Shown in pieces: positions 2,852 to 27,917 of a stretch of 32,000 nt of DNA. Location: positions 1,020,001 through 1,052,000 of the forward strand of contig OY843585.1 of assembly GCA_963692945.1 (NCBI GenBank), in the 5' to 3' direction. The stretch is from Bdellovibrionales bacterium (GTDB lineage: Bacteria > Bdellovibrionota > Bdellovibrionia > Bdellovibrionales > UBA1609). A program made the position numbers and the translations under genes. Positions within the stretch are counted from its first letter, which is position 1, and each line of letters begins with the position of its first letter. The notes under the pieces were generated by a model. The model made no database searches and was not told where the DNA came from. It saw only the letters and a list, made by a program, of their open reading frames with translations.

Positions 2852-3635
2852 ATTTCAAATTCTAAGTCTTTTTCCAAATTACTTTCAATCTACTTTAGAA
2901 GAAGGGCTTGTAGCTAAAGCCATTAAAAATAAACTGATAGAGATTCATCTGATCAATCCTAGAGATTTTTCTAAAGATAAGGCAAGAAGAGTTGATGATT
3001 ATCCTTTTGGAGGTGGGGATAGTATGATTATGAGTTACCAACCTCTTGAAAGCTCTTTAAATTCATTAGAAGATAAAGGGCGAGTTGTTTTTTTAACCCC
3101 TTCAGGAAAGTTATGGGATCATGAAAAAACAAAAAATTATGCTAAAAACTATAAAACTCTAACACTGATTTGTGGTCGTTATGGAGGAATAGATCAGAGG
3201 TTTATTAAAGACTATGTGGATGAAGAGGTGTCTATTGGAGATTATGTATTAAATGGTGGAGAAGTGGCTTGTTTGGTTTTGTTAGAAAGTCTATTTCGTT
3301 TTATCCCTGGAAGTTTAGGAAATGAAAAATCCTCAATGGAGGAGAGTTTTGAAAAAGAAGGTCTTTTAGAATGTCCTCAGTGGACAAGACCTCAAGATAT
3401 AGGTTTTAGCTCTATTCCAAAAGTTATACTGAGTGGAAATCATCAATCTATAAAACAATTTAGATACTACAGTTCCCTTGTTATCACTTCTATAAAAAGA
3501 CCAGATTTATTGAAAAAAAATAAAAAATTATTAAAAGAATTACCTATAGCTCAAAAAGAACTAGCTCAACTTTCTTTGGAAGATCTTCAATCCTTAAATC
3601 TTCATCCTAGAGACCTAAAACTCGTCTTGACCTGA
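2844..3635 (+). CDS. trmD: tRNA (guanine37-N1)-methyltransferase
   Basis: ICGRYGGIDQRF and SIGDYVLNGGE motifs. It overlaps the rimM end by 8 nt. Confidence 0.93.
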   Translation: MIKFQILSLFPNYFQSTLEEGLVAKAIKNKLIEIHLINPRDFSKDKARRVDDYPFGGGDSMIMSYQPLESSLNSLEDKGRVVFLTPSGKLWDHEKTKNYAKNYKTLTLICGRYGGIDQRFIKDYVDEEVSIGDYVLNGGEVACLVLLESLFRFIPGSLGNEKSSMEESFEKEGLLECPQWTRPQDIGFSSIPKVILSGNHQSIKQFRYYSSLVITSIKRPDLLKKNKKLLKELPIAQKELAQLSLEDLQSLNLHPRDLKLVLT

Positions 3636-5001: not shown

Positions 5002-5478
5002 TTAATTTTTTAAGCCGCTCTTGGCTCCATATAGTTTTAAAATAGATATAACCTCATCTGATTTTTTCCCACGATAAGCGTAATCAAGAGGTGTAGATTT
5101 TTCATGAGTCATAGCATTGACATCCGCTCCTTGTTGGATAATAAATTCTATAATCTCTGAAGACCGACTAAAATAGGCTGCATAGTGAAGAGGAGTTTCT
5201 TTGGAAAGAGTTTTTGCATGTATGTCTGCACCGTTTGCAATAAGAATTTTTAGAACTTGTAAAGTGCTTAGATTTCCCCACTTCTCACTAGTAAGGCTAT
5301 AATGAAGAAGAGTGATTCCACCTCTATATGTTTTGTTTACATTTTTATCAGAGAAACCTATATTTTCTATATTAAGTAAAACAGTTTTAGGAAAGAGATA
5401 ATTATCAACGGTGTGATTTGTAGCAGAGACATAACTTATATGAAATAGTAAAATAAAAATAGTAACTAAATATTTCAT
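5002..5478 (-). CDS. Secreted ankyrin-repeat protein
   Basis: N-terminal signal peptide MKYLVTIFILLFHISYVSA. Ankyrin consensus stretches follow: GITLLHYS..., LKILIANGADIHAK, TPLHYAA, IIQQGADVNA, STPLDYA. Confidence 0.85.
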   Translation of the reverse strand: MKYLVTIFILLFHISYVSATNHTVDNYLFPKTVLLNIENIGFSDKNVNKTYRGGITLLHYSLTSEKWGNLSTLQVLKILIANGADIHAKTLSKETPLHYAAYFSRSSEIIEFIIQQGADVNAMTHEKSTPLDYAYRGKKSDEVISILKLYGAKSGLKN

Positions 5479-8404: not shown

Positions 8405-8481
<77 letters not shown>

Positions 8482-8748: not shown

Positions 8749-9092
8749 AAACTCTCGTTCTTCCCTTTTTACTTTTTGAGCTTTCATCGTAAGAGGGACA
8801 CTCTTCAACCTCAAAAAGTAAAAAGGGTATTCCTAGAGAAAAACTGCTGTTTTTCACATGGGGGGACACTCTTCAAATCTCGTTAAAATAAGAGTTACTT
8901 AATAGGTTTATTATTTGAACGAGAGAAAACCTACTGGTTTTCGCATGGGTGAACACTCTTCAAATCTCGTTAAAATAAGAGTTACTTAATAGGTTTATTA
9001 TTTGAACGAGAGAAAACCTACTGTTTTTCGTATCAGGGGCGTTCTTCAAGGTTAGAAAACAAGTAGAGTAGGGGAAGAACTAGAGTTTTGTA
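8745..9092 (+). repeat. Composite hairpin-module repeat element with terminal inverted repeats (four ~87-bp units)
   Basis: TACAAAACTCTCGTTC (8745-8760) is complementary to GAACTAGAGTTTTGTA (9077-9092) at 15 of 16 positions. Units start near 8745, 8831, 8917 and 9004. A partial fifth unit follows to about 9125. Confidence 0.75.
8866..9023 (+). repeat. Tandem duplication, 87-bp period, 71-bp perfect block
   Basis: 8866-8936 is identical to 8953-9023 (ACACTCTTCAAATCTCGTTAAAATAAGAGTTACTTAATAGGTTTATTATTTGAACGAGAGAAAACCTACTG). Confidence 0.9.
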
Positions 9093-9210
9093 ATTTGAAC
9101 GAGAGAAAAGCTTCATTTTTATGACAAATCCTATAAAAAATATAAAAAAATAAAGTTGACTTTATTTCTCTATAAAAATAAGAATAACTATTAAAAATAA
9201 AGGAGGTAGT

Positions 9211-12895: not shown

Positions 12896-13256
12896 AAATA
12901 GTTTGATCTAAAATCATGAGCATTTGATTTATATTTCTTTGATTTTGTAGATATATTTTTTTGCCATTATTATAATCTTTTTGAGCCGTTGTTTTATTTA
13001 TCCCTTTTACAATTTTATATTTAAAAAGATACCCTTCTGTTTTCCATTTGCTGTTATTTGCACGTTTAAGAAACTCTAAAGATTTTTTTGCATCTTTTTT
13101 TGCATCTTTGTAAATTTCGTAATCTGACTTAGCTATTTCTTCATGAATTTTTGGACAGTCTATACAATTTTCTTGTTCTTTTTTTGATTCTACTTTTGGT
13201 GGTTCTGCAAAGGCCATGCCATTTACCAAAAATGTTAAAATAACCAATGCTTTCAT
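12891..13256 (-). CDS. Hypothetical secreted Lys-rich protein
   Basis: The Met at 13256 is preceded by AAGGAG with 6-nt spacing. The signal peptide is MKALVILTFLVNGMAFA. The track start at 13283 lacks an RBS. Confidence 0.6.
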   Translation of the reverse strand: MKALVILTFLVNGMAFAEPPKVESKKEQENCIDCPKIHEEIAKSDYEIYKDAKKDAKKSLEFLKRANNSKWKTEGYLFKYKIVKGINKTTAQKDYNNGKKIYLQNQRNINQMLMILDQTIL

Positions 13257-23016: not shown

Positions 23017-23643
23017 TCAAAAAATAAAGGGATGAACTTTATAATCCTTAAATGCTACTGCATCTCTAAAAGCTTTATTAACGGGAGGTTGGTTTGTGAT
23101 CTTTCTAATGAGAGGAGTGGATGCCATAATATCACTCATCTTAACTTTTTCAAATATTCTAACACATTTGTTTAAAGTTCTTTTAGGTATTGAAAAATAA
23201 TTTGAAAGTTTTCTATTCTTTTTTAACATAGAAAGAGGAGTGTTACCTTTATTATCTTCTATATGAAGATCAGCACCTTGTCTAATGAGTAGTTGGATGG
23301 CTTCCAAAAATTCACTTTCAACAGCCCAATGAAGAGCTGTCTTTTTATAGTTATCATAACCATCAATAAAGATGTCGGCTTTTAAAAGAAGTTTGATAGA
23401 TTCTAGGCTTTTTAATTTAACAGCTACATGCAAAGCGGTTTGATTGTTTTTATCTCTCTCATGTATTTCAGTAGTTAATAAAAGAACAGACAATTTTTTT
23501 GTATCTCCAATTGTAACAGCTTTATGTAGTTCTGAAGAATGTGCAAAAGAACTTAAAACGAAACAGAGTGAAAATGAAACTGTTTTTATTTTGTATGGTA
23601 TTAAAGTCATAGATAACCTTTTTGTTAGAGATTCCTTTATCAT
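23017..23643 (-). CDS. Secreted ankyrin-repeat protein
   Basis: Hydrophobic leader (likely start MTLIPYKIKTVSFSLCFVLSSFAHS at 23610). Repeats include NQTALHVAV, LLLKADIFIDG, KTALHWAV, LIRQGADLHIED and GNTPLSM. Confidence 0.85.
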   Translation of the reverse strand: MIKESLTKRLSMTLIPYKIKTVSFSLCFVLSSFAHSSELHKAVTIGDTKKLSVLLLTTEIHERDKNNQTALHVAVKLKSLESIKLLLKADIFIDGYDNYKKTALHWAVESEFLEAIQLLIRQGADLHIEDNKGNTPLSMLKKNRKLSNYFSIPKRTLNKCVRIFEKVKMSDIMASTPLIRKITNQPPVNKAFRDAVAFKDYKVHPFIF

Positions 23644-23719
23644 ATATATCTAGTTTTAAAATGATTACAAAGTTTAATGAAACTTTTTGTAGAATTTTCT
23701 GGTAGATCAAGGAATTGTT

Positions 23720-23803
23720 CAAGAAACTGTAAATATTATCGTGTCTTTAGAACATTCTAATAAAGAAATAGATGATCTTATTTCGTTTTTACGAGATAAA
23801 TAA
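23720..23803 (+). pseudogene. Orphan copy of the last 27 codons plus stop of the 725-aa HEAT-repeat gene
   Basis: It translates to QETVNIIVSLEHSNKEIDDLISFLRDK*, against QETVNIIVSLEGSNKEIDDLISFLRDK* at 25740-25823 (-). There are 3 nt differences in 84. An in-frame TAG at 23690 and the absence of an ATG mean it has no gene body. Confidence 0.8.
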
Positions 23804-23978
23804 ACTATAAGGTGCAAAAACATGGCATAAATAGTGGGGTTTTTCTGTGTTAATTATCAATGAAACATAATAATACTTATCGGGGATTTATAACCAAACA
23901 CCAATCTTGGACTACCAACTACATATCCGTAATTGAACATCCCATCTATTTGTTTAATTAAACAACTCTTTTAAAAAA
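23720..23978 (+). repeat. Left arm of a 259-bp inverted repeat
   Basis: It is the reverse complement of 25565-25823. The inner 126 bp (23853-23978) are perfect, the middle ~50 bp are diverged with indels, and the outer 84 bp have 3 mismatches. Confidence 0.92.
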
Positions 23979-24016
23979 TCTTTTAAATTTTCTAAATCTA
24001 TGTAAAAATATTCTTT

Positions 24017-24358
24017 ATGAAATACTTTCTATTTATTATTATCTTCTTTTCTTTATTCTCTGTTAGAGCACAGGATCTAACAATACCAGTCAATAAAGAG
24101 GAAATGTGTACTTCTTTTAGTGAATTTAAATCTTGTCTTGAAACTAGCTTATGGTCTTTTTTCTGTTATGGTCATGAAGTTAGGGCAAAACAATATGTAT
24201 CTGTTATTAAAACTTTGGCCATAAAAAAAGGATACAAAGAAAGATTAAAAAGAATAAAGAATACATTAGATAATTGTTCAGATATAACTTGTGTTAAGAA
24301 AAACAGTATAGAATCTATGAATGTATCTGAAGAAATTGCTGAATGCCATTCTCTTTAA
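24017..24358 (+). CDS. Small secreted six-Cys protein (paralog 1)
   Basis: Signal peptide MKYFLFIIIFFSLFSVRA. Cys residues are at 31, 40, 50, 87, 92 and 110. There is no obvious SD. Confidence 0.6.
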   Translation: MKYFLFIIIFFSLFSVRAQDLTIPVNKEEMCTSFSEFKSCLETSLWSFFCYGHEVRAKQYVSVIKTLAIKKGYKERLKRIKNTLDNCSDITCVKKNSIESMNVSEEIAECHSL

Positions 24359-24489
24359 AATAGTCCCATATCAATTATAATGCATGTTATAAGACTAAAG
24401 TGACATTTTTAGTGATATTTGTATTGCTCAAAGTCTATATCGGATATTAAAATTACTATCAGTAAGTCAAAAAAGTAAGGAGCCGTAAA

Positions 24490-24825
24490 ATGAAATACAT
24501 AATACTCATTTTTAGTTTTTTCTTAGTTGGCTGTCCCAATGTTAAAACAAAAGATTTTAAAACAGAAGTCTGTAACAGTTATAAAAAAAGCTATGATTGT
24601 TTTCTTGTTGCTGATCCTGTTTCTGGAGGAAGTAGTTGTGCAAAACTTATGGGGGAAACAATACAAAAATATAAGTCAGAACTTTTAAAATTGTACACTC
24701 CAGAAAAGATACAACAATTGGATAAGGATACAGATGTTTGTGTAAGTAAAGTTACATCTGTAGAGCAGAGAAAAGAATGTACTCTTTTATACTTACAAAA
24801 ATTTATAAACCTGATGGAATGTTAA
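24490..24825 (+). CDS. Small six-Cys lipoprotein (paralog 2)
   Basis: AAGGAG SD and lipobox LVGC. Mature Cys residues are at 28, 37, 50, 84, 97 and 111, the same scaffold as paralog 1. Confidence 0.68.
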   Translation: MKYIILIFSFFLVGCPNVKTKDFKTEVCNSYKKSYDCFLVADPVSGGSSCAKLMGETIQKYKSELLKLYTPEKIQQLDKDTDVCVSKVTSVEQRKECTLLYLQKFINLMEC

Positions 24826-25253
24826 CTCTTATGTTTAATAAAAATGGCTTTATTTATTTTAGTTTTCTTTTCTTCTCTTTTCAAACTTTTTCATCATCGT
24901 CTATGACTTGTGAAAATATACCAGAATTTATAGAAGATACAAAAGCATTTATGGAAGAAACTAAGTCTAATAATAATGATGTCTGTGATAATTTGAAATT
25001 TGAAAAAGAGTGTAATAATATTGATTCTGACTTCTGTAATTCTATTAGGGATTCTCGTGAAGATATGTTTGACTATATGGCTATTTCAATAGATATAACC
25101 GTTAGTATTACCCATGCCTATTCAAACAAAATAGATAGTTGTCTTAGACCTTCTTGTAGTAAATATCAATCCGAAGAAGTTTTTGCAGAAAACTTTTATA
25201 AATGTATCTGGAAATATTCAGATCACTACTCTAAAGATCATTGTTCCAAATAA
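24819..25253 (+). CDS. Small secreted Cys-rich protein (paralog 3, eight Cys)
   Basis: The start is probably ATG 24819 or 24831 (MLTLMFNKNGFIYFSFLFFSFQTFS leader), overlapping the paralog 2 stop. It contains the same Cys scaffold plus two extra Cys. Confidence 0.6.
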   Translation: MLTLMFNKNGFIYFSFLFFSFQTFSSSSMTCENIPEFIEDTKAFMEETKSNNNDVCDNLKFEKECNNIDSDFCNSIRDSREDMFDYMAISIDITVSITHAYSNKIDSCLRPSCSKYQSEEVFAENFYKCIWKYSDHYSKDHCSK

Positions 25254-25352
25254 TATTAAATGGAGATTTTTATTTTGAATTCTTCTTTTGCCGTTTAAGG
25301 TATAAATTTTTCCAATTAAAATAATGGGCATATAGTAAATCATAGACAATTT

Positions 25353-25553
25353 TTATTCTTTAGGTTTTTTATTATACTCTTTGACAGCTTTATTATATTT
25401 TTTTAAAAACTTTTCGTGTTCGTCAACAGAAATTCTATACTCATCATCAATATCTTTAAACCCTTTTTTTTCTTTATAAAAATCTTTTTTTGATTTTATG
25501 TGTTTAGTAACAGCCTGTTTATATTCATTAGGAGCTTTAGGATGTTCAGACAA
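25353..25553 (-). CDS. Possible small Lys/Glu-rich protein (66 aa, TTG start)
   Basis: Stop-free 66 codons with only a TTG start and no SD. It starts 12 nt inside the right repeat arm. Weak. Confidence 0.3.
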   Translation of the reverse strand: MSEHPKAPNEYKQAVTKHIKSKKDFYKEKKGFKDIDDEYRISVDEHEKFLKKYNKAVKEYNKKPKE

Positions 25554-25564
25554 GTTAGAATGGT

Positions 25565-25823
25565 TTTTTTAAAAGAGTTGTTTAATTAAACAAATAGATG
25601 GGATGTTCAATTACGGATATGTAGTTGGTAGTCCAAGATTGGTGTTTGGTTATAAATCCCCGATAAGTATTATTATGTTTCATTGATAATGAACATAGAA
25701 AAACCCCTATTTATACCCTGTTTTTGAAACCCTACTAATTTATTTATCTCGCAAAAACGAAATAAGATCATCTATTTCTTTATTAGAACCTTCTAAAGAC
25801 ACGATAATATTTACAGTTTCTTG
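25565..25823 (-). repeat. Right arm of the 259-bp inverted repeat
   Basis: See the left arm. It covers 175 bp downstream of the 725-aa gene plus its last 27 codons and stop. Confidence 0.92.
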
Positions 25824-27917
25824 TGTTAAATTTTCAATATTTTTAAACAATTGAACTGCTAAGTAACGTACTTTTCTACTTTCATCTTGAAGAAAATAAA
25901 CCAATTCAGATTGAACATTTGGATGAAACCAATTTAAAGAGCTTATATGGTTCAAAACACTTCTTCTTATCTTCTTATCCGGCTCTTTATAAAATTGACT
26001 TATTCTATAATAAATACCCAAGTCTTTTATTTTCATTTGAGATAAAGTTTCTAAAGTAAAATACAAAATAGATAAATCTTTCTTTGATTCTAAAAGTTTA
26101 TAAAAATAATCTAAAGTAAAATCTGAGAGATTCAAACTGCTTTTGAAGGATGCAATTCCATTTTGAAAAAGATTGCGATTTTCCAAATTCTCATGAATAT
26201 AATAAACGATATGACTCATAGCCTTTTCACTTACAATATTCACTTGACTAAAAGAAGACAAAATACGCTCAGCCAATTTTGTATCACTATGATTTAAAAT
26301 CTCAGCCAATTTTTCTTGTATATCTGCATGAGGTGTTTTTATGAATAACAAAGCATCTAAAGCTTCATCTCGTATCCAAGGTTCACTATGGTTTAAAAAA
26401 GTAGCCATTTTAGCATGAGTACTATAATTTGTGATTGGACTTTGTCCTAACAATCTTAAAGTATAAAAAATCAACCCGTTATCGTTCTCATTTAAAAAGT
26501 TTGAAACTTCTAAAGCAATGTCATGTTTAGGTTTTATATGAGCTAGAGTATTAAGAGATTGATAACAAAATGTTATTTTATCTTTTCTATTATCATAGCA
26601 AAAATCAAGAATTTCTTGTTGAAGATGAGGAGATTCATATTGTAATTTTTCTAAAATAAGTAAACTCCAAATATTTTTAATGTAACCTTTTGGTAAATCC
26701 TTTTCTGTAAAGAAAAACTTTCTTTTATCTAATTGATTATCCGCTATAAGTAAATTAATAGACATGTAGGATTCACTGTCTGGATTTTTAACTAAACTTA
26801 CAATGCTTTCCTTCATTTTTGTTTTTAACTCTAGATAATCTATCCACTGAAATCTTTTTAAAATATTCAAATAAACTATTTTCATATAAGGAAGATGGTT
26901 GAGATGCTTATAGAAAGATTTAAATTTTTGAGAAAAAGTTTCATTGTTTTTCAAATTACGAAATATCTCTCTCCCCTCCCCTTCTACCATTTTACTTTGA
27001 TAATTTCCTAAAAAATGTTCTATAGCAAAAAAGGCAGAACCTGAGTTATCTGATTCAAAAATATTTTTTAGAGATTCAGCTCTTTTGATAAAAGGAACTT
27101 TGTTATCAAACAGAATACATTTATTTTGAAATAGAATTTGATCCTTTATATCCTTAGTAATTAAAGGTAAATAAGCTTGACTAATTGTTGTATGTTTTAA
27201 ATTTGTAAGTAACTCTGTATTTTCTTTACGTTCGTAAGATTTATTATGAATGTATTTATAGTAACTTCCATATCGTTTATTGATGGATTTAAAATAATTT
27301 TTTAAAGAACCGCTGATATGCTTTCCTAAAGGACTTAATTGATCAAAACCATAAATTGATTTTGATCCTGAAAATATAAAATTCATACGCTTATGAAAAG
27401 GAGCTCCTAAAGGAGAATAACGAGCCGCCACGACTCTTTCTGCTGTTTCTCTTGCCATACCATCATCTAATAAAACTTTGAGATACTGTTCATAGGTTCT
27501 GGTATCTTTTGTTTTATCTGACAGGGTATTGCATCCAAAAAGAAAAATCTCTTTCACATTTGAAAGAATTTGCGAACAAGACTTGTTACAGGATTGCTCT
27601 TCAAGTAATTCTGTAGGTAATGTGAACCCAGACTTCCCAAAAAAAGTTCCACCAAAATGACCAGAAATAACTAAGATGTCACATTTGTAATTTTTTTTAC
27701 AGGCATCGTAAAACCAATGAGAGTCATGAGTTTTATAATGTTCTTTGTTTTGTGGTAACAGCTCTACAAATTCAAATTTTTCAGGAGATAAATGCTCTTT
27801 AAAAACTTCTATCTCATCAGCAGAATTAATAGTAATAGAACAGACTTGGTATTTAGCAAAAGCAGGAAAAGAAAAAAGGAAACAATAAAAATAAAAAATC
27901 CATTTTTTATTTAACAT
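25740..27917 (-). CDS. Secreted 725-aa protein: N-terminal putative His/Cys (clan CD caspase-like) module plus C-terminal HEAT/armadillo-like repeats
   Basis: Signal peptide MLNKKWIFYFYCFLFSFPAFA. A hydrophobic strand is followed by GH (DILVISGHFGG, H87), and a second strand by GC (EIFLFGCNTL, C129). The C-terminal half has repeated helical units such as EPWIRDEALDALLF, DKKIRRSVLNHISSL and ESRKVRYLAVQLFKNI. Confidence 0.75.
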   Translation of the reverse strand: MLNKKWIFYFYCFLFSFPAFAKYQVCSITINSADEIEVFKEHLSPEKFEFVELLPQNKEHYKTHDSHWFYDACKKNYKCDILVISGHFGGTFFGKSGFTLPTELLEEQSCNKSCSQILSNVKEIFLFGCNTLSDKTKDTRTYEQYLKVLLDDGMARETAERVVAARYSPLGAPFHKRMNFIFSGSKSIYGFDQLSPLGKHISGSLKNYFKSINKRYGSYYKYIHNKSYERKENTELLTNLKHTTISQAYLPLITKDIKDQILFQNKCILFDNKVPFIKRAESLKNIFESDNSGSAFFAIEHFLGNYQSKMVEGEGREIFRNLKNNETFSQKFKSFYKHLNHLPYMKIVYLNILKRFQWIDYLELKTKMKESIVSLVKNPDSESYMSINLLIADNQLDKRKFFFTEKDLPKGYIKNIWSLLILEKLQYESPHLQQEILDFCYDNRKDKITFCYQSLNTLAHIKPKHDIALEVSNFLNENDNGLIFYTLRLLGQSPITNYSTHAKMATFLNHSEPWIRDEALDALLFIKTPHADIQEKLAEILNHSDTKLAERILSSFSQVNIVSEKAMSHIVYYIHENLENRNLFQNGIASFKSSLNLSDFTLDYFYKLLESKKDLSILYFTLETLSQMKIKDLGIYYRISQFYKEPDKKIRRSVLNHISSLNWFHPNVQSELVYFLQDESRKVRYLAVQLFKNIENLTQETVNIIVSLEGSNKEIDDLISFLRDK

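What the first reader, a model, noticed from the sequence alone, without database searches (positions are those of the whole stretch)
23720..25823. 1.6-kb cassette of secreted Cys-rich proteins bracketed by 259-bp inverted repeats: candidate invertible or foldback module
Seen directly: 23720-23978 is the reverse complement of 25565-25823, 259 bp each. The arms enclose 1,586 bp (23979-25564). That interior carries three same-strand small signal-peptide or lipoprotein Cys-rich ORFs and one possible opposite-strand 66-aa ORF. Each interior end gene starts very close to a repeat arm: 39 nt for 24017 and 12 nt for 25553. So whatever lies in the arms, for example the inward-facing TTGAAC-N17-AATTAA, sits in promoter position on both sides. 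Repeats this long flanking a discrete gene set are the architecture of invertible segments and foldback elements. No recombinase or transposase is in the window, so any inversion would need RecA or a recombinase encoded elsewhere. Both flanks, an ankyrin protein and a HEAT-repeat protein, are also secreted accessory-type genes. The whole 23-28 kb block therefore looks like a variable surface or secretome locus.
Basis: partly seen in the sequence, partly recalled or inferred. Interest (0 to 1): 0.8.

Follow-up and report, generated by a model that had tools for sequence, protein, structure and literature searches.

The report
Inverted duplicated dif sites at terminus
The 259-bp inverted repeat is real, and each arm carries a copy of the chromosome's dimer-resolution (dif) site at the replication terminus, so a 1.8-kb block of small secreted-protein genes sits between two opposed XerC/XerD sites, a layout thought to be rare and awkward for chromosome segregation and one that could flip the block.

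Summary
The repeat is confirmed: arms 23720-23978 and 25565-25823, 1,586 bp apart, with the inner 126 bp identical. The outer 84 bp of each arm is the 3' end of the conserved HEAT-repeat gene. The right copy is native and the left is a dead fragment.

It has the 11-6-11 XerC/XerD layout and shares GATAAGT..TTATGT with the published Bdellovibrio dif. It recurs downstream of the HEAT ortholog in two distant relatives whose flanks do not align. In all three sequences it lies at or within about 110 nt of the cumulative GC-skew maximum, so this locus is the replication terminus.

The two sites are identical and inverted, with XerC halves inward. One relative has the same inverted pair only 9 bp apart.

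In the closest relative an ORF1 homolog lies directly downstream of HEAT. Here ORF1 follows the dead HEAT fragment, so the cassette has been inverted at least once.

Best reading: an inverted breakpoint duplication at the terminus, now a substrate for XerCD or RecA flipping. Ongoing flipping is untested. The closest precedents are the Lactobacillus bulgaricus terminus repeat and Acinetobacter dif modules.

The parts
23720..23978 (+). Left arm of the inverted repeat. It is the derived copy: HEAT 3' fragment, then a diverged spacer, then the dif site, then 91 bp.
23720..23803 (+). Dead copy of the last 27 codons plus stop of the HEAT gene (QETVNIIVSLEHSNKEIDDLISFLRDK*). There is no start codon upstream and a TAG at 23690-23692 closes the frame. 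It differs at 3 nt from the native copy.
23804..23852 (.). Diverged spacer on the XerD side of the site. It holds 8 of the 11 difference events between the arms, including the two 2-nt indels.
23860..23887 (-). dif-like site, left copy. Read on the minus strand it is ATCCCCGATAA GTATTA TTATGTTTCAT (XerC arm, spacer, XerD arm). The XerD arm faces outward toward the ankyrin gene.
23853..23978 (.). Perfectly identical inner core of the left arm (126 bp). Its partner is 25565-25690.
24017..24358 (+). ORF1, 113 aa, 6 Cys, N-terminal hydrophobic segment, predicted helical bundle. Its only homolog is the gene directly downstream of HEAT in locus L001.
24490..24825 (+). ORF2, 111 aa, lipobox LVGC, 7 Cys, good Shine-Dalgarno sequence (AAGGAG). 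It is a distant paralog of ORF1 and has no convincing relatives among 1.84 billion representative proteins.
24831..25253 (+). ORF3, about 140 aa from the likely start at 24831 (public call starts at 24777). 7 Cys in this 140-aa form, 8 in the 158-aa public call, hydrophobic N-terminus, no family match.
25353..25553 (-). Possible 66-aa Lys-rich ORF. Codon usage is gene-like, but it has a TTG start, no Shine-Dalgarno sequence, no homologs, and was not called in the public annotation.
25565..25823 (-). Right arm of the inverted repeat. It is the ancestral copy, contiguous with the HEAT gene.
25656..25683 (+). dif-like site, right copy, identical to the left one. Its XerD arm faces outward toward HEAT. 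The cumulative GC-skew maximum of the window is at 25649.
25740..27917 (-). Conserved 725-aa HEAT-repeat protein gene. Its last 84 bp form the outer part of the right arm and its C-terminus is conserved in orthologs.
23017..23643 (-). Ankyrin-repeat protein gene flanking the left arm. It starts 76 nt from the arm.

Best explanation
The locus is the replication terminus of a small AT-rich Bdellovibrionota-like chromosome.

The 259-bp arms are an inverted duplication of the last 84 bp of the conserved HEAT-repeat gene plus 175 bp downstream of it. That downstream stretch contains the chromosome's dif site, the 28-bp target of the XerC/XerD dimer-resolution recombinases. The chromosome therefore carries two identical dif sites in opposite orientation. 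XerD half-sites point outward and XerC half-sites inward. Between them lie 1.77 kb with three small Cys-rich secreted-type genes and perhaps a fourth ORF.

Shown:
- the repeat itself;
- that the right arm is native and the left is a pseudo-copy;
- the dif architecture, its conservation, and its coincidence with the GC-skew switch;
- that the cassette is inverted relative to the ancestral HEAT-then-ORF1 order.

Inferred origin: a single inversion or break-repair event at the terminus copied 259 bp at one breakpoint. This resembles the staggered-break inversions described in Drosophila and the terminus repeat of Lactobacillus bulgaricus.

Inferred later history: gene conversion kept the inner 126 bp identical.

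Inferred present behaviour: the segment can be flipped, either by XerCD acting on the two identical inverted sites or by RecA across the 126-bp core. Flipping would have little regulatory effect, because both end genes face the same arm sequence.
For: Repeat and gradient of identity:
- The repeat is real and its inner 126 bp is perfect.

Which arm is native:
- The C-terminal residues encoded in the right arm align with orthologs, for example P0002 ...SLKGQNPEVDLLIQFLK. The right arm is therefore native.
- The left copy has no usable start and an upstream stop.

dif identity:
- The 28-nt site has the 11-6-11 layout with the inner ATAA/TTAT palindrome and a XerD arm TTATGTTTCAT.
- The published B. 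bacteriovorus HD100 dif is TCTTCTGATAAGTTATATTATGTAACGG (PMC2731167). It shares the 17-nt run GATAAGTTATATTATGT exactly with the L006 sites.
- The same motif lies downstream of the HEAT ortholog, with the XerD arm nearest HEAT, in L002 (28 of 32 identical) and L006. The flanks do not align.
- None of 300 shuffled arms reach that match score.
- A weight matrix built from the sites scores them 37-40 bits, against 12 bits or less anywhere else in about 140 kb. This test is circular because the matrix was built from those sites.

Terminus:
- The cumulative GC-skew maxima fall at 25649 in the window (site 25656-25683), 13231 in L002 (site 13098-13125) and 3472 in L006 (sites 3314-3378).
- Five of the six related loci without a site (L003, L004, L005, L008, L009) have their skew extreme at or within about 400 nt of an end. 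L007 and L001 peak internally.
- In the window, skew is +0.070 to the left and -0.089 to the right, block-permutation P = 0.00085.
- Third-codon-position skew is positive for left-side genes on both strands.

Past inversion:
- In L001 (HEAT 66% identical) the gene immediately downstream of HEAT on the same strand is an ORF1 homolog (tblastn E about 1e-14, 38% identity in MAFFT, all 6 Cys aligned).
- In the window, ORF1 follows the HEAT 3' pseudo-fragment instead.

Recombination competence by analogy:
- Inversely oriented pdif sites with identical spacers invert dif modules in Acinetobacter plasmids, shown by PCR and by reads (PMC13141974).

Precedent:
- Two opposed dif sites inside a terminus inverted repeat separated by 1-8.8 kb of unique DNA occur in L. 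bulgaricus (PMC5345009).
Against: - Only 32 kb of the genome is visible. The skew maximum is local, xerC, xerD and ftsK were not seen, and a better dif elsewhere cannot be excluded.
- No reads and no close relatives are available (the nearest HEAT ortholog is 66% identical), so neither orientation polymorphism nor the immediate ancestor could be examined.
- The ancestral order rests on one relative (L001). There ORF1's homolog overlaps the HEAT stop codon, with no dif between the two genes.
- No microhomology is visible by eye at the two inferred novel junctions, so the breakpoint mechanism is not specified.
- The perfect core could reflect a low overall divergence combined with a mutational hotspot in the 49-bp spacer, rather than gene conversion.
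- Third-position skew inside the cassette is weakly negative (82 sites) and uninformative.
- Two opposed dif sites are expected to interfere with dimer resolution (PMC5345009; PMC12907356). One copy may therefore be non-functional despite identical sequence.
Confidence: 0.6

Rival explanations
1. The structure is a static relic. It is an old inverted segmental duplication that no longer recombines. The second dif-like site is inert and the perfect core is a chance or hotspot effect.
For: The outer half of the arms has diverged by about 8-10%, including indels. That argues against frequent whole-arm homogenisation. Nothing functional in the arms was detected apart from the dif-like site. Opposed dif sites are expected to be harmful if both are active.
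Against: A 126-bp perfect run is improbable under even divergence (P between 0.0006 and 0.007). The two 28-bp sites are identical, spacer included, and that is the condition under which inverted pdif sites recombine in Acinetobacter. A 126-bp perfect repeat is, from general knowledge, above the usual minimum length for RecA recombination.
Confidence: 0.2
2. The cassette is a mobile dif module of the Acinetobacter type (a 'C module', with XerC sides internal). It was delivered to or exchanged at the chromosomal dif by double Xer crossover.
For: The geometry matches the definition of C modules: inversely oriented sites with XerC sides internal. The cargo is a discrete set of accessory orphan genes. 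A relative has the same site pair with only 9 bp between, which looks like an empty slot. The boundary between perfect and diverged arm sequence lies 8 bp outside the XerD arm.
Against: The homology extends 141 bp outward and 91 bp inward of the sites, whereas module boundaries are the 28-bp sites themselves. The outward part is host coding sequence. ORF1 is ancestrally linked to HEAT in a relative, so the cargo is resident and not imported. No second copy of the cargo or core was found in plasmids, phages, viral or metagenome collections. The main chromosomal dif is considered not to take part in modules.
Confidence: 0.08
3. The cassette is a programmed phase-variation switch (inverton or shufflon type) driven by a dedicated invertase. 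It toggles expression of the secreted proteins.
For: The architecture is an inverted repeat around surface or secreted-type genes, and the end genes start 11-38 nt from the arms.
Against: There is no invertase or integrase in 32 kb. The arms are far longer than invertase sites and include a gene's 3' end. Both arms present the same sequence to both end genes, so flipping would not switch a promoter. Promoter-like sites are not enriched.
Confidence: 0.03
4. The structure is a non-autonomous foldback or long-TIR transposable element, or an assembly artefact.
For: Long terminal inverted repeats bracket cargo that lacks a transposase. The source is a metagenome-style single contig.
Against: The outer arm is native HEAT coding sequence conserved in orthologs. 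There is no target-site duplication at the arm boundaries by eye. There are only two copies, none elsewhere in the window or the collections. The arms differ by 11 events including indels, whereas chimeric or foldback artefacts give perfect palindromes. The short double site in L006 lies within the length of a single read.
Confidence: 0.04

Closest known systems
Inverted repeat at the replication terminus of Lactobacillus delbrueckii ssp. bulgaricus, with duplicated and opposed dif sites (El Kafsi et al. 2017, PMC5345009)
   Same: The inverted repeat is located at the replication terminus. The repeated sequence includes the putative dif site, giving two dif sites in opposite orientation. The arms are separated by about 1-9 kb of unique sequence. 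Origin is attributed to a break-repair event near the terminus.
   Different: The arms here are 259 bp, not tens of kilobases, a scale that survey was not designed to detect. The host is a different phylum with a XerC/D-type site. Here a related genome also has an inverted dif pair with no extended arms, so the duplication looks recurrent.
Acinetobacter dif modules (pdif 'C modules'; PMC13141974, PMC12907356, PMC6449649)
   Same: The cargo is bounded by inversely oriented 28-bp XerC/XerD sites with the XerC sides internal. The spacers are identical, the condition under which inversion of modules has been demonstrated. The cargo is small accessory genes.
   Different: Those modules are on plasmids or at extra chromosomal dif-like sites, not at the main terminus dif. 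Their boundaries are the sites themselves, with no 259-bp flanking homology. They are found in many contexts, whereas this cargo is unique and partly ancestral to the locus.
Inversions with inverted duplication of unique breakpoint sequence (staggered-break model; Ranz et al. 2007, PMC1885836)
   Same: An inverted segment is flanked by an inverted duplication of formerly single-copy sequence, including a partial gene, from one breakpoint only. The median duplicate size there is 321 bp and identity about 88%. One copy decays.
   Different: That model was described in Drosophila and invokes end joining. No bacterial counterpart was looked for here, and the bacterial mechanism (fork collision, template switching or break repair at the terminus) is unknown.
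Canonical chromosomal dif / XerCD / FtsK dimer resolution (Carnoy & Roten 2009, PMC2731167; Bonne et al. 2009, PMC2673442)
   Same: The 28-bp 11-6-11 site has a conserved XerD arm and sits at the cumulative GC-skew maximum, between converging genes in the relatives.
   Different: There are two copies per chromosome instead of one, in opposite orientation. Both XerD arms face outward, so FtsK arriving from either replichore would meet a XerD side first.

Membership tests
Chromosomal dif site (XerC/XerD type) | 28-bp site made of two 11-bp arms around a 6-bp spacer, with the inner ATAA/TTAT palindrome and a conserved XerD arm (TTATGTTAAAT-like) | tested here: met
   ATCCCCGATAA GTATTA TTATGTTTCAT. 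The XerD arm matches E. coli in 9 of 11 positions. It shares GATAAGT..TTATGT with the published B. bacteriovorus HD100 dif.
Chromosomal dif site (XerC/XerD type) | Located at the replication terminus, defined as the maximum of cumulative GC skew | tested here: met
   The maxima lie 7, 94 and 106 nt from the sites in the window, L006 and L002. Five of the six site-free related loci have their skew extreme at or within about 400 nt of an end; L007 and L001 peak internally. Only local sequence was available, not the whole chromosome.
Chromosomal dif site (XerC/XerD type) | Site conserved among related genomes while the flanks vary | tested here: met
   25 of 28 site positions (28 of 32 with 2-nt flanks) are identical between the window and L002, and the flanks do not align. 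0 of 300 shuffles reach the score.
Chromosomal dif site (XerC/XerD type) | A single copy per chromosome | tested here: not met
   There are two identical inverted copies in the window, and two plus a degenerate third in L006.
Chromosomal dif site (XerC/XerD type) | The genome encodes XerC, XerD and FtsK, and these bind and recombine the site | not testable with these tools
   None is encoded in the 32-kb window. The rest of the genome could not be retrieved.
Acinetobacter-type dif module (C module) | Cargo flanked by inversely oriented XerC/D sites with the XerC sides internal | tested here: met
   On the plus strand the order is D/C at 23860-23887, then cargo, then C/D at 25656-25683. The definition is given.
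Acinetobacter-type dif module (C module) | The same module is found in different replicons or contexts, bounded exactly at the sites (evidence of mobility) | tested here: not met
   The cargo and core are absent from plasmid, phage, viral and metagenome collections. ORF1 and ORF2 have no convincing relatives. Homology between the arms extends 141 bp and 91 bp beyond the sites.
Terminus inverted repeat with duplicated dif (L. bulgaricus type) | Inverted repeat at the terminus whose arms include dif, with a unique central segment | tested here: met
   description of the precedent
Terminus inverted repeat with duplicated dif (L. bulgaricus type) | Very large size (38-76 kb) | tested here: not met
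   The arms are 259 bp.
Inversion with breakpoint duplication (staggered-break type) | An outgroup retains the uninverted order across the duplicated breakpoint | tested here: met
   In L001 HEAT is followed directly by an ORF1 homolog on the same strand. In the window the HEAT 3' pseudo-fragment is followed by ORF1. This rests on a single outgroup.
Programmed inverton or shufflon | A dedicated invertase or tyrosine recombinase adjacent to short inverted repeats, with a promoter or coding segment whose flipping changes expression | tested here: not met
   There is no recombinase in the window. Both arms present the same sequence to both end genes, and there is no promoter enrichment.
Foldback or long-TIR mobile element | Multiple genomic copies, target-site duplication, and termini not derived from host genes | tested here: not met
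   There are only two copies of the core. The outer arm is the native HEAT coding end. No target-site duplication is seen by eye at the boundaries.

The most novel reading that the evidence does not exclude
Both inverted dif sites are active. The 1.8-kb cassette is then an invertible segment driven by the housekeeping XerCD/FtsK machinery and flipped in step with cell division. The paired geometry with XerD arms outward, also seen 9 bp apart in a relative, is maintained because FtsK arriving from either chromosome arm then meets a XerD side, the only side from which it can activate recombination. That would make it a symmetric terminus design not described for any bacterium.
Probability: 0.2. 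Interest if true: 0.8.

Novelty: new variant of a known kind. Interest (0 to 1): 0.6.

Why it matters
A circular chromosome is expected to have one dif site. Two opposed sites should sometimes invert part of a chromosome dimer instead of resolving it. The only natural case I found in the literature is the giant terminus repeat of L. bulgaricus.

The window shows a miniature version in an unrelated, small-genome Bdellovibrionota-like lineage. One relative, from the same clade, has a back-to-back inverted dif pair. Together these suggest that duplication of dif in inverted orientation recurs at termini and is tolerated.

The case raises several testable questions:
- whether XerCD and FtsK flip DNA between opposed chromosomal dif sites in nature;
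- whether the XerD-outward geometry has a function;
- how small inverted duplications arise where replication forks meet.

It also shows that long inverted repeats around accessory genes should be checked for dif sites before being read as phase-variation switches.

Tried and rejected
- **RNA in the arms.** Rfam at gathering threshold and at relaxed E-values found nothing. There are no tRNA or tmRNA genes. Both strands fold no better than shuffles, z about 0.4.
- **Small ORF in the core.** The 33-aa ORF starting at 23860 has codon usage near zero. In L002 the ATG is followed by TAA. Rejected.
- **Retrieving the source genome or close relatives.** Exact-protein look-ups failed. Both genome-collection scans were empty. 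Metagenome and viral scans for the core and for the dif motif were empty.
- **Mobile-element origin.** There is no similarity to plasmids or phages.
- **Cargo function.** There are no significant Pfam or NCBIfam hits; only two NCBIfam matches far below their cut-offs. ORF1 has a single homolog, the L001 gene. ORF2 has no convincing relative among 1.84 billion representative proteins; the one other hit covers 21 residues at E = 5e-4. The ORF1 AlphaFold model (pLDDT 77) is a helical bundle with no meaningful PDB match, best E = 0.8. The afdb50 library was unavailable.
- **HEAT protein versus PDB sequences.** No hit.
- **Microhomology at the inferred novel junctions** (23719|23720 and 25564|25565). 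None visible by eye.
- **Codon-third-position skew inside the cassette as a clock for inversion.** Too few sites.
- **Synteny on the far side of the terminus.** It is not conserved between the window, L002 and L006.
Full report
**1. The observation**

The arms are 23720-23978 and 25565-25823, 259 nt each, with 1,586 nt between them. No other inverted repeat in the window comes close; the next is 45 nt at 73%. A 66-nt piece of the core occurs twice in the window and never in 100 shuffles.

The gapped alignment has 246 of 261 identical columns. The 15 differing columns form 11 events, including two 2-nt indels that cancel each other out. All of them lie in the outer half of the arms. The inner 126 bp is perfect. 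If the differences were spread evenly, a perfect run that long would have P of about 0.0006 counting columns, or 0.007 counting events.

The interior ORFs are as described. No recombinase was found in Pfam scans of 34 ORFs, nearly all those of 100 aa or more.

**2. What the arms are made of**

The outer 84 bp of the right arm is the end of a 725-aa HEAT-repeat gene (25740-27917, minus strand). That C-terminus aligns with orthologs such as P0002, which ends ...SLKGQNPEVDLLIQFLK. The right arm is therefore native.

The left arm holds the same 27 codons plus stop in the opposite direction. It has one amino-acid change (G to H) and one synonymous change. An in-frame TAG lies just upstream and there is no start codon. 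It is a dead fragment.

The HEAT gene is not accessory. It has more than 340 homologs in Bdellovibrionales/Oligoflexia-labelled assemblies. Its upstream neighbours (a coiled-coil protein, a STAS protein and CysS) recur in most of the related loci examined.

**3. The cassette has been inverted at least once**

In the closest relative available (L001, HEAT 66% identical), the gene immediately downstream of HEAT on the same strand is a 119-aa homolog of cargo ORF1. The tblastn E-value is about 1e-14, MAFFT identity is 38%, and all six cysteines align.

In the window, ORF1 follows the dead HEAT fragment of the left arm, not the live HEAT gene. The adjacency of HEAT 3' end and ORF1 is thus preserved, but it has been turned around as a block.

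The simplest history is one inversion of the segment in which 259 bp at the HEAT-side breakpoint ended up at both ends. This pattern is described for 17 of 29 Drosophila inversions, with median duplicate size 321 bp and identity about 88% (PMC1885836). A two-step route, inverted copy first and a flip later, gives the same product. I saw no microhomology by eye at the two inferred new junctions.

**4. The arms contain a dif site**

A blastn of the arm against the related loci gave one unexpected hit. It was 31 nt at 90% identity in L002, 0.9 kb downstream of that genome's HEAT ortholog and in the same orientation relative to HEAT. None of 300 shuffled arms reached this score, and the flanks do not align.

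Read on the other strand, the motif is ATCCCCGATAA-GTATTA-TTATGTTTCAT. It has the 11-6-11 layout of a XerC/XerD dif site, with the inner ATAA/TTAT palindrome and a XerD arm close to the E. coli TTATGTTAAAT (the E. coli sequence is from my own knowledge).

Carnoy and Roten list the B. bacteriovorus HD100 dif as TCTTCTGATAAGTTATATTATGTAACGG (PMC2731167). The sites in L006 share the 17-nt run GATAAGTTATATTATGT with it exactly. The window and L002 sites differ from it only in the spacer and the outer arm positions.

A weight matrix built from the five sites plus HD100 scores them at 37-40 bits, against 12 bits or less everywhere else in about 140 kb of clade sequence. This test is circular because the matrix was built from those sites, but it shows how specific the pattern is.

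**5. The locus is the replication terminus**

Using the criterion of that paper, the cumulative GC-skew maximum is:
- at 25649 in the window (right site 25656-25683);
- at 13231 in L002 (site 13098-13125);
- at 3472 in L006 (sites 3314-3378).

Five of the six related loci without a site (L003, L004, L005, L008, L009) have their skew extreme at or within about 400 nt of an end. L007 and L001 peak internally.

In the window the skew is +0.070 to the left of the sites and -0.089 to the right, with block-permutation P = 0.00085. Third-codon-position skew on the plus strand is positive for left-side genes on both strands (+0.19 and +0.10). It is negative for the two large right-side genes. This is local evidence only, because the rest of the chromosome could not be retrieved.

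**6. Geometry and the relative with an empty pair**

The two window sites are identical in all 28 positions and are inverted. Their XerD arms face outward and their XerC arms face the cargo.

L006 (HEAT 61% identical) has the same arrangement with only 9 bp between the sites. It forms a perfect 24-nt palindrome with a 17-nt loop at a convergent-gene boundary, plus a degenerate third copy. L002 has a single site.

In all three genomes the HEAT-proximal site has its XerD arm toward HEAT. That copy is therefore the ancestral one and the distal inverted copy is derived, which agrees with section 2. In L006 the repeat does not extend beyond the sites. The two duplications thus look independent, or else they reflect a recurring process at this terminus.

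**7. How it probably works**

Shown: there are two identical opposed dif-like sites at a skew switch, and the segment between them has been inverted in the past.

Inferred from precedent: in Acinetobacter plasmids, inversely oriented pdif sites with identical 6-bp spacers invert the modules between them. This was detected by PCR and as an 8% minority among reads (PMC13141974). By analogy, XerCD could flip 23888-25655.

RecA could do the same across the 126-bp perfect core. Gene conversion between the arms is the simplest reason why the core is perfect while the outer part has drifted. The heterologies in the 49-bp spacer, including the indels, would confine conversion to the inner block.

An alternative I cannot exclude is a low overall divergence combined with a mutational hotspot in the spacer.

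Flipping would have little regulatory effect. ORF1 and the 66-aa ORF both face the same arm sequence, so only read-through from the HEAT gene would change. I therefore do not read this as a phase-variation switch.

[quoted passage not shown] With both XerD arms outward, FtsK arriving from either chromosome arm would meet a XerD side first. That is a possible rationale for the geometry, but it is speculation.

**8. Comparison with what is known**

The closest precedent is the terminus inverted repeat of L. delbrueckii ssp. bulgaricus. Its arms include the putative dif, giving two opposed sites separated by 1-8.8 kb of unique DNA. The authors called it unprecedented, expected it to complicate dimer resolution, and did not find it in 1,373 other chromosomes when screening for very large repeats (PMC5345009). 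The present case has the same design at one-hundredth the scale, in another phylum.

It also fits the formal definition of an Acinetobacter 'C module'. However, it fails the mobility criteria:
- the cargo is unique and partly ancestral to the locus;
- the homology extends well beyond the sites;
- the main chromosomal dif is thought not to take part in modules.

It is not a programmed inverton, a foldback element or an assembly artefact. The membership table gives the tests.

**9. Cargo**

ORF1 to ORF3 are small Cys-rich proteins with hydrophobic N-termini, and ORF2 has a lipobox. ORF1 and ORF2 are distant paralogs. Their codon usage is gene-like.

They have no significant family assignment; two NCBIfam matches fall far below their cut-offs. 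The only real relative is the L001 gene. The ORF1 model is a helical bundle (pLDDT 77) with no structural match. Their function remains unknown and does not bear on the repeat.

**10. Verdict**

The feature is best described as an inverted duplication of the dif region at the replication terminus that brackets an inverted gene cassette.

My confidence that the motif is the chromosome's dif at the terminus is about 0.85. Confidence in the composite explanation is about 0.6. My estimate that both orientations coexist today is about 0.5. The decisive data are the whole-genome skew, the xerC/xerD inventory and the read-level orientation counts.

Noticed in passing
L006:3314-3404: A related MAG contig (GCA_051011135.1) has two perfect inverted dif-like sites 9 bp apart. 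They form a 24-nt palindrome with a 17-nt loop, XerC arms facing each other. A degenerate third copy (20 of 28 matches) overlaps the end of the second site. The array lies between convergent genes at the local GC-skew maximum.
   Followed up: partly
window 8835-9120: About three tandem copies of an 87-nt unit (93% identity between the first two). They lie in a 730-bp non-coding gap after tRNA-Met (8405-8481) where GC is locally raised. No Rfam family reaches its gathering score.
   Followed up: no
window 25740-27917 (-) and homologs P0001-P0120: The 725-aa HEAT-repeat protein belongs to a large family with a hydrophobic N-terminus (over 340 hits). Most of the related loci examined carry the same upstream neighbours (coiled-coil protein, STAS, FUR, CysS). 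One distant homolog (P0118) is named a caspase p20 domain protein by its source. Pfam gives only a weak HEAT_2 hit and no PDB sequence match was found.
   Followed up: partly
window 24777-24830: The public gene call for ORF3 starts at 24777 and overlaps ORF2 by 49 nt. The in-frame ATG at 24831, 5 nt after the ORF2 stop, gives a typical signal-peptide-like N-terminus and is the more likely start.
   Followed up: partly
window 23860-23961 and 25582-25683: A 33-aa ORF (MKHNNTYRGF...) lies inside the perfect core of both arms and overlaps the dif-like site. Its codon usage is not gene-like, and in L002 the ATG is followed directly by TAA. It is almost certainly not a gene.
   Followed up: yes
window 24017-25553: Third-codon-position GC skew of the four cassette ORFs, expressed on the plus strand, is weakly negative (-0.10). 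Genes to the left average +0.14. This would fit a fairly recent inversion or membership of the right replichore, but only 82 informative sites are available.
   Followed up: partly
window 5002-5478 (-) and 23017-23643 (-); L006:1576-3174: The window has two ankyrin-repeat proteins. Two more lie between HEAT and the dif pair in L006, and a Sel1-repeat protein lies downstream of HEAT in L004. Eukaryote-like repeat proteins cluster around this terminus region in a 1.56-Mb, 29% GC genome, which hints at a host-associated lifestyle.
   Followed up: no
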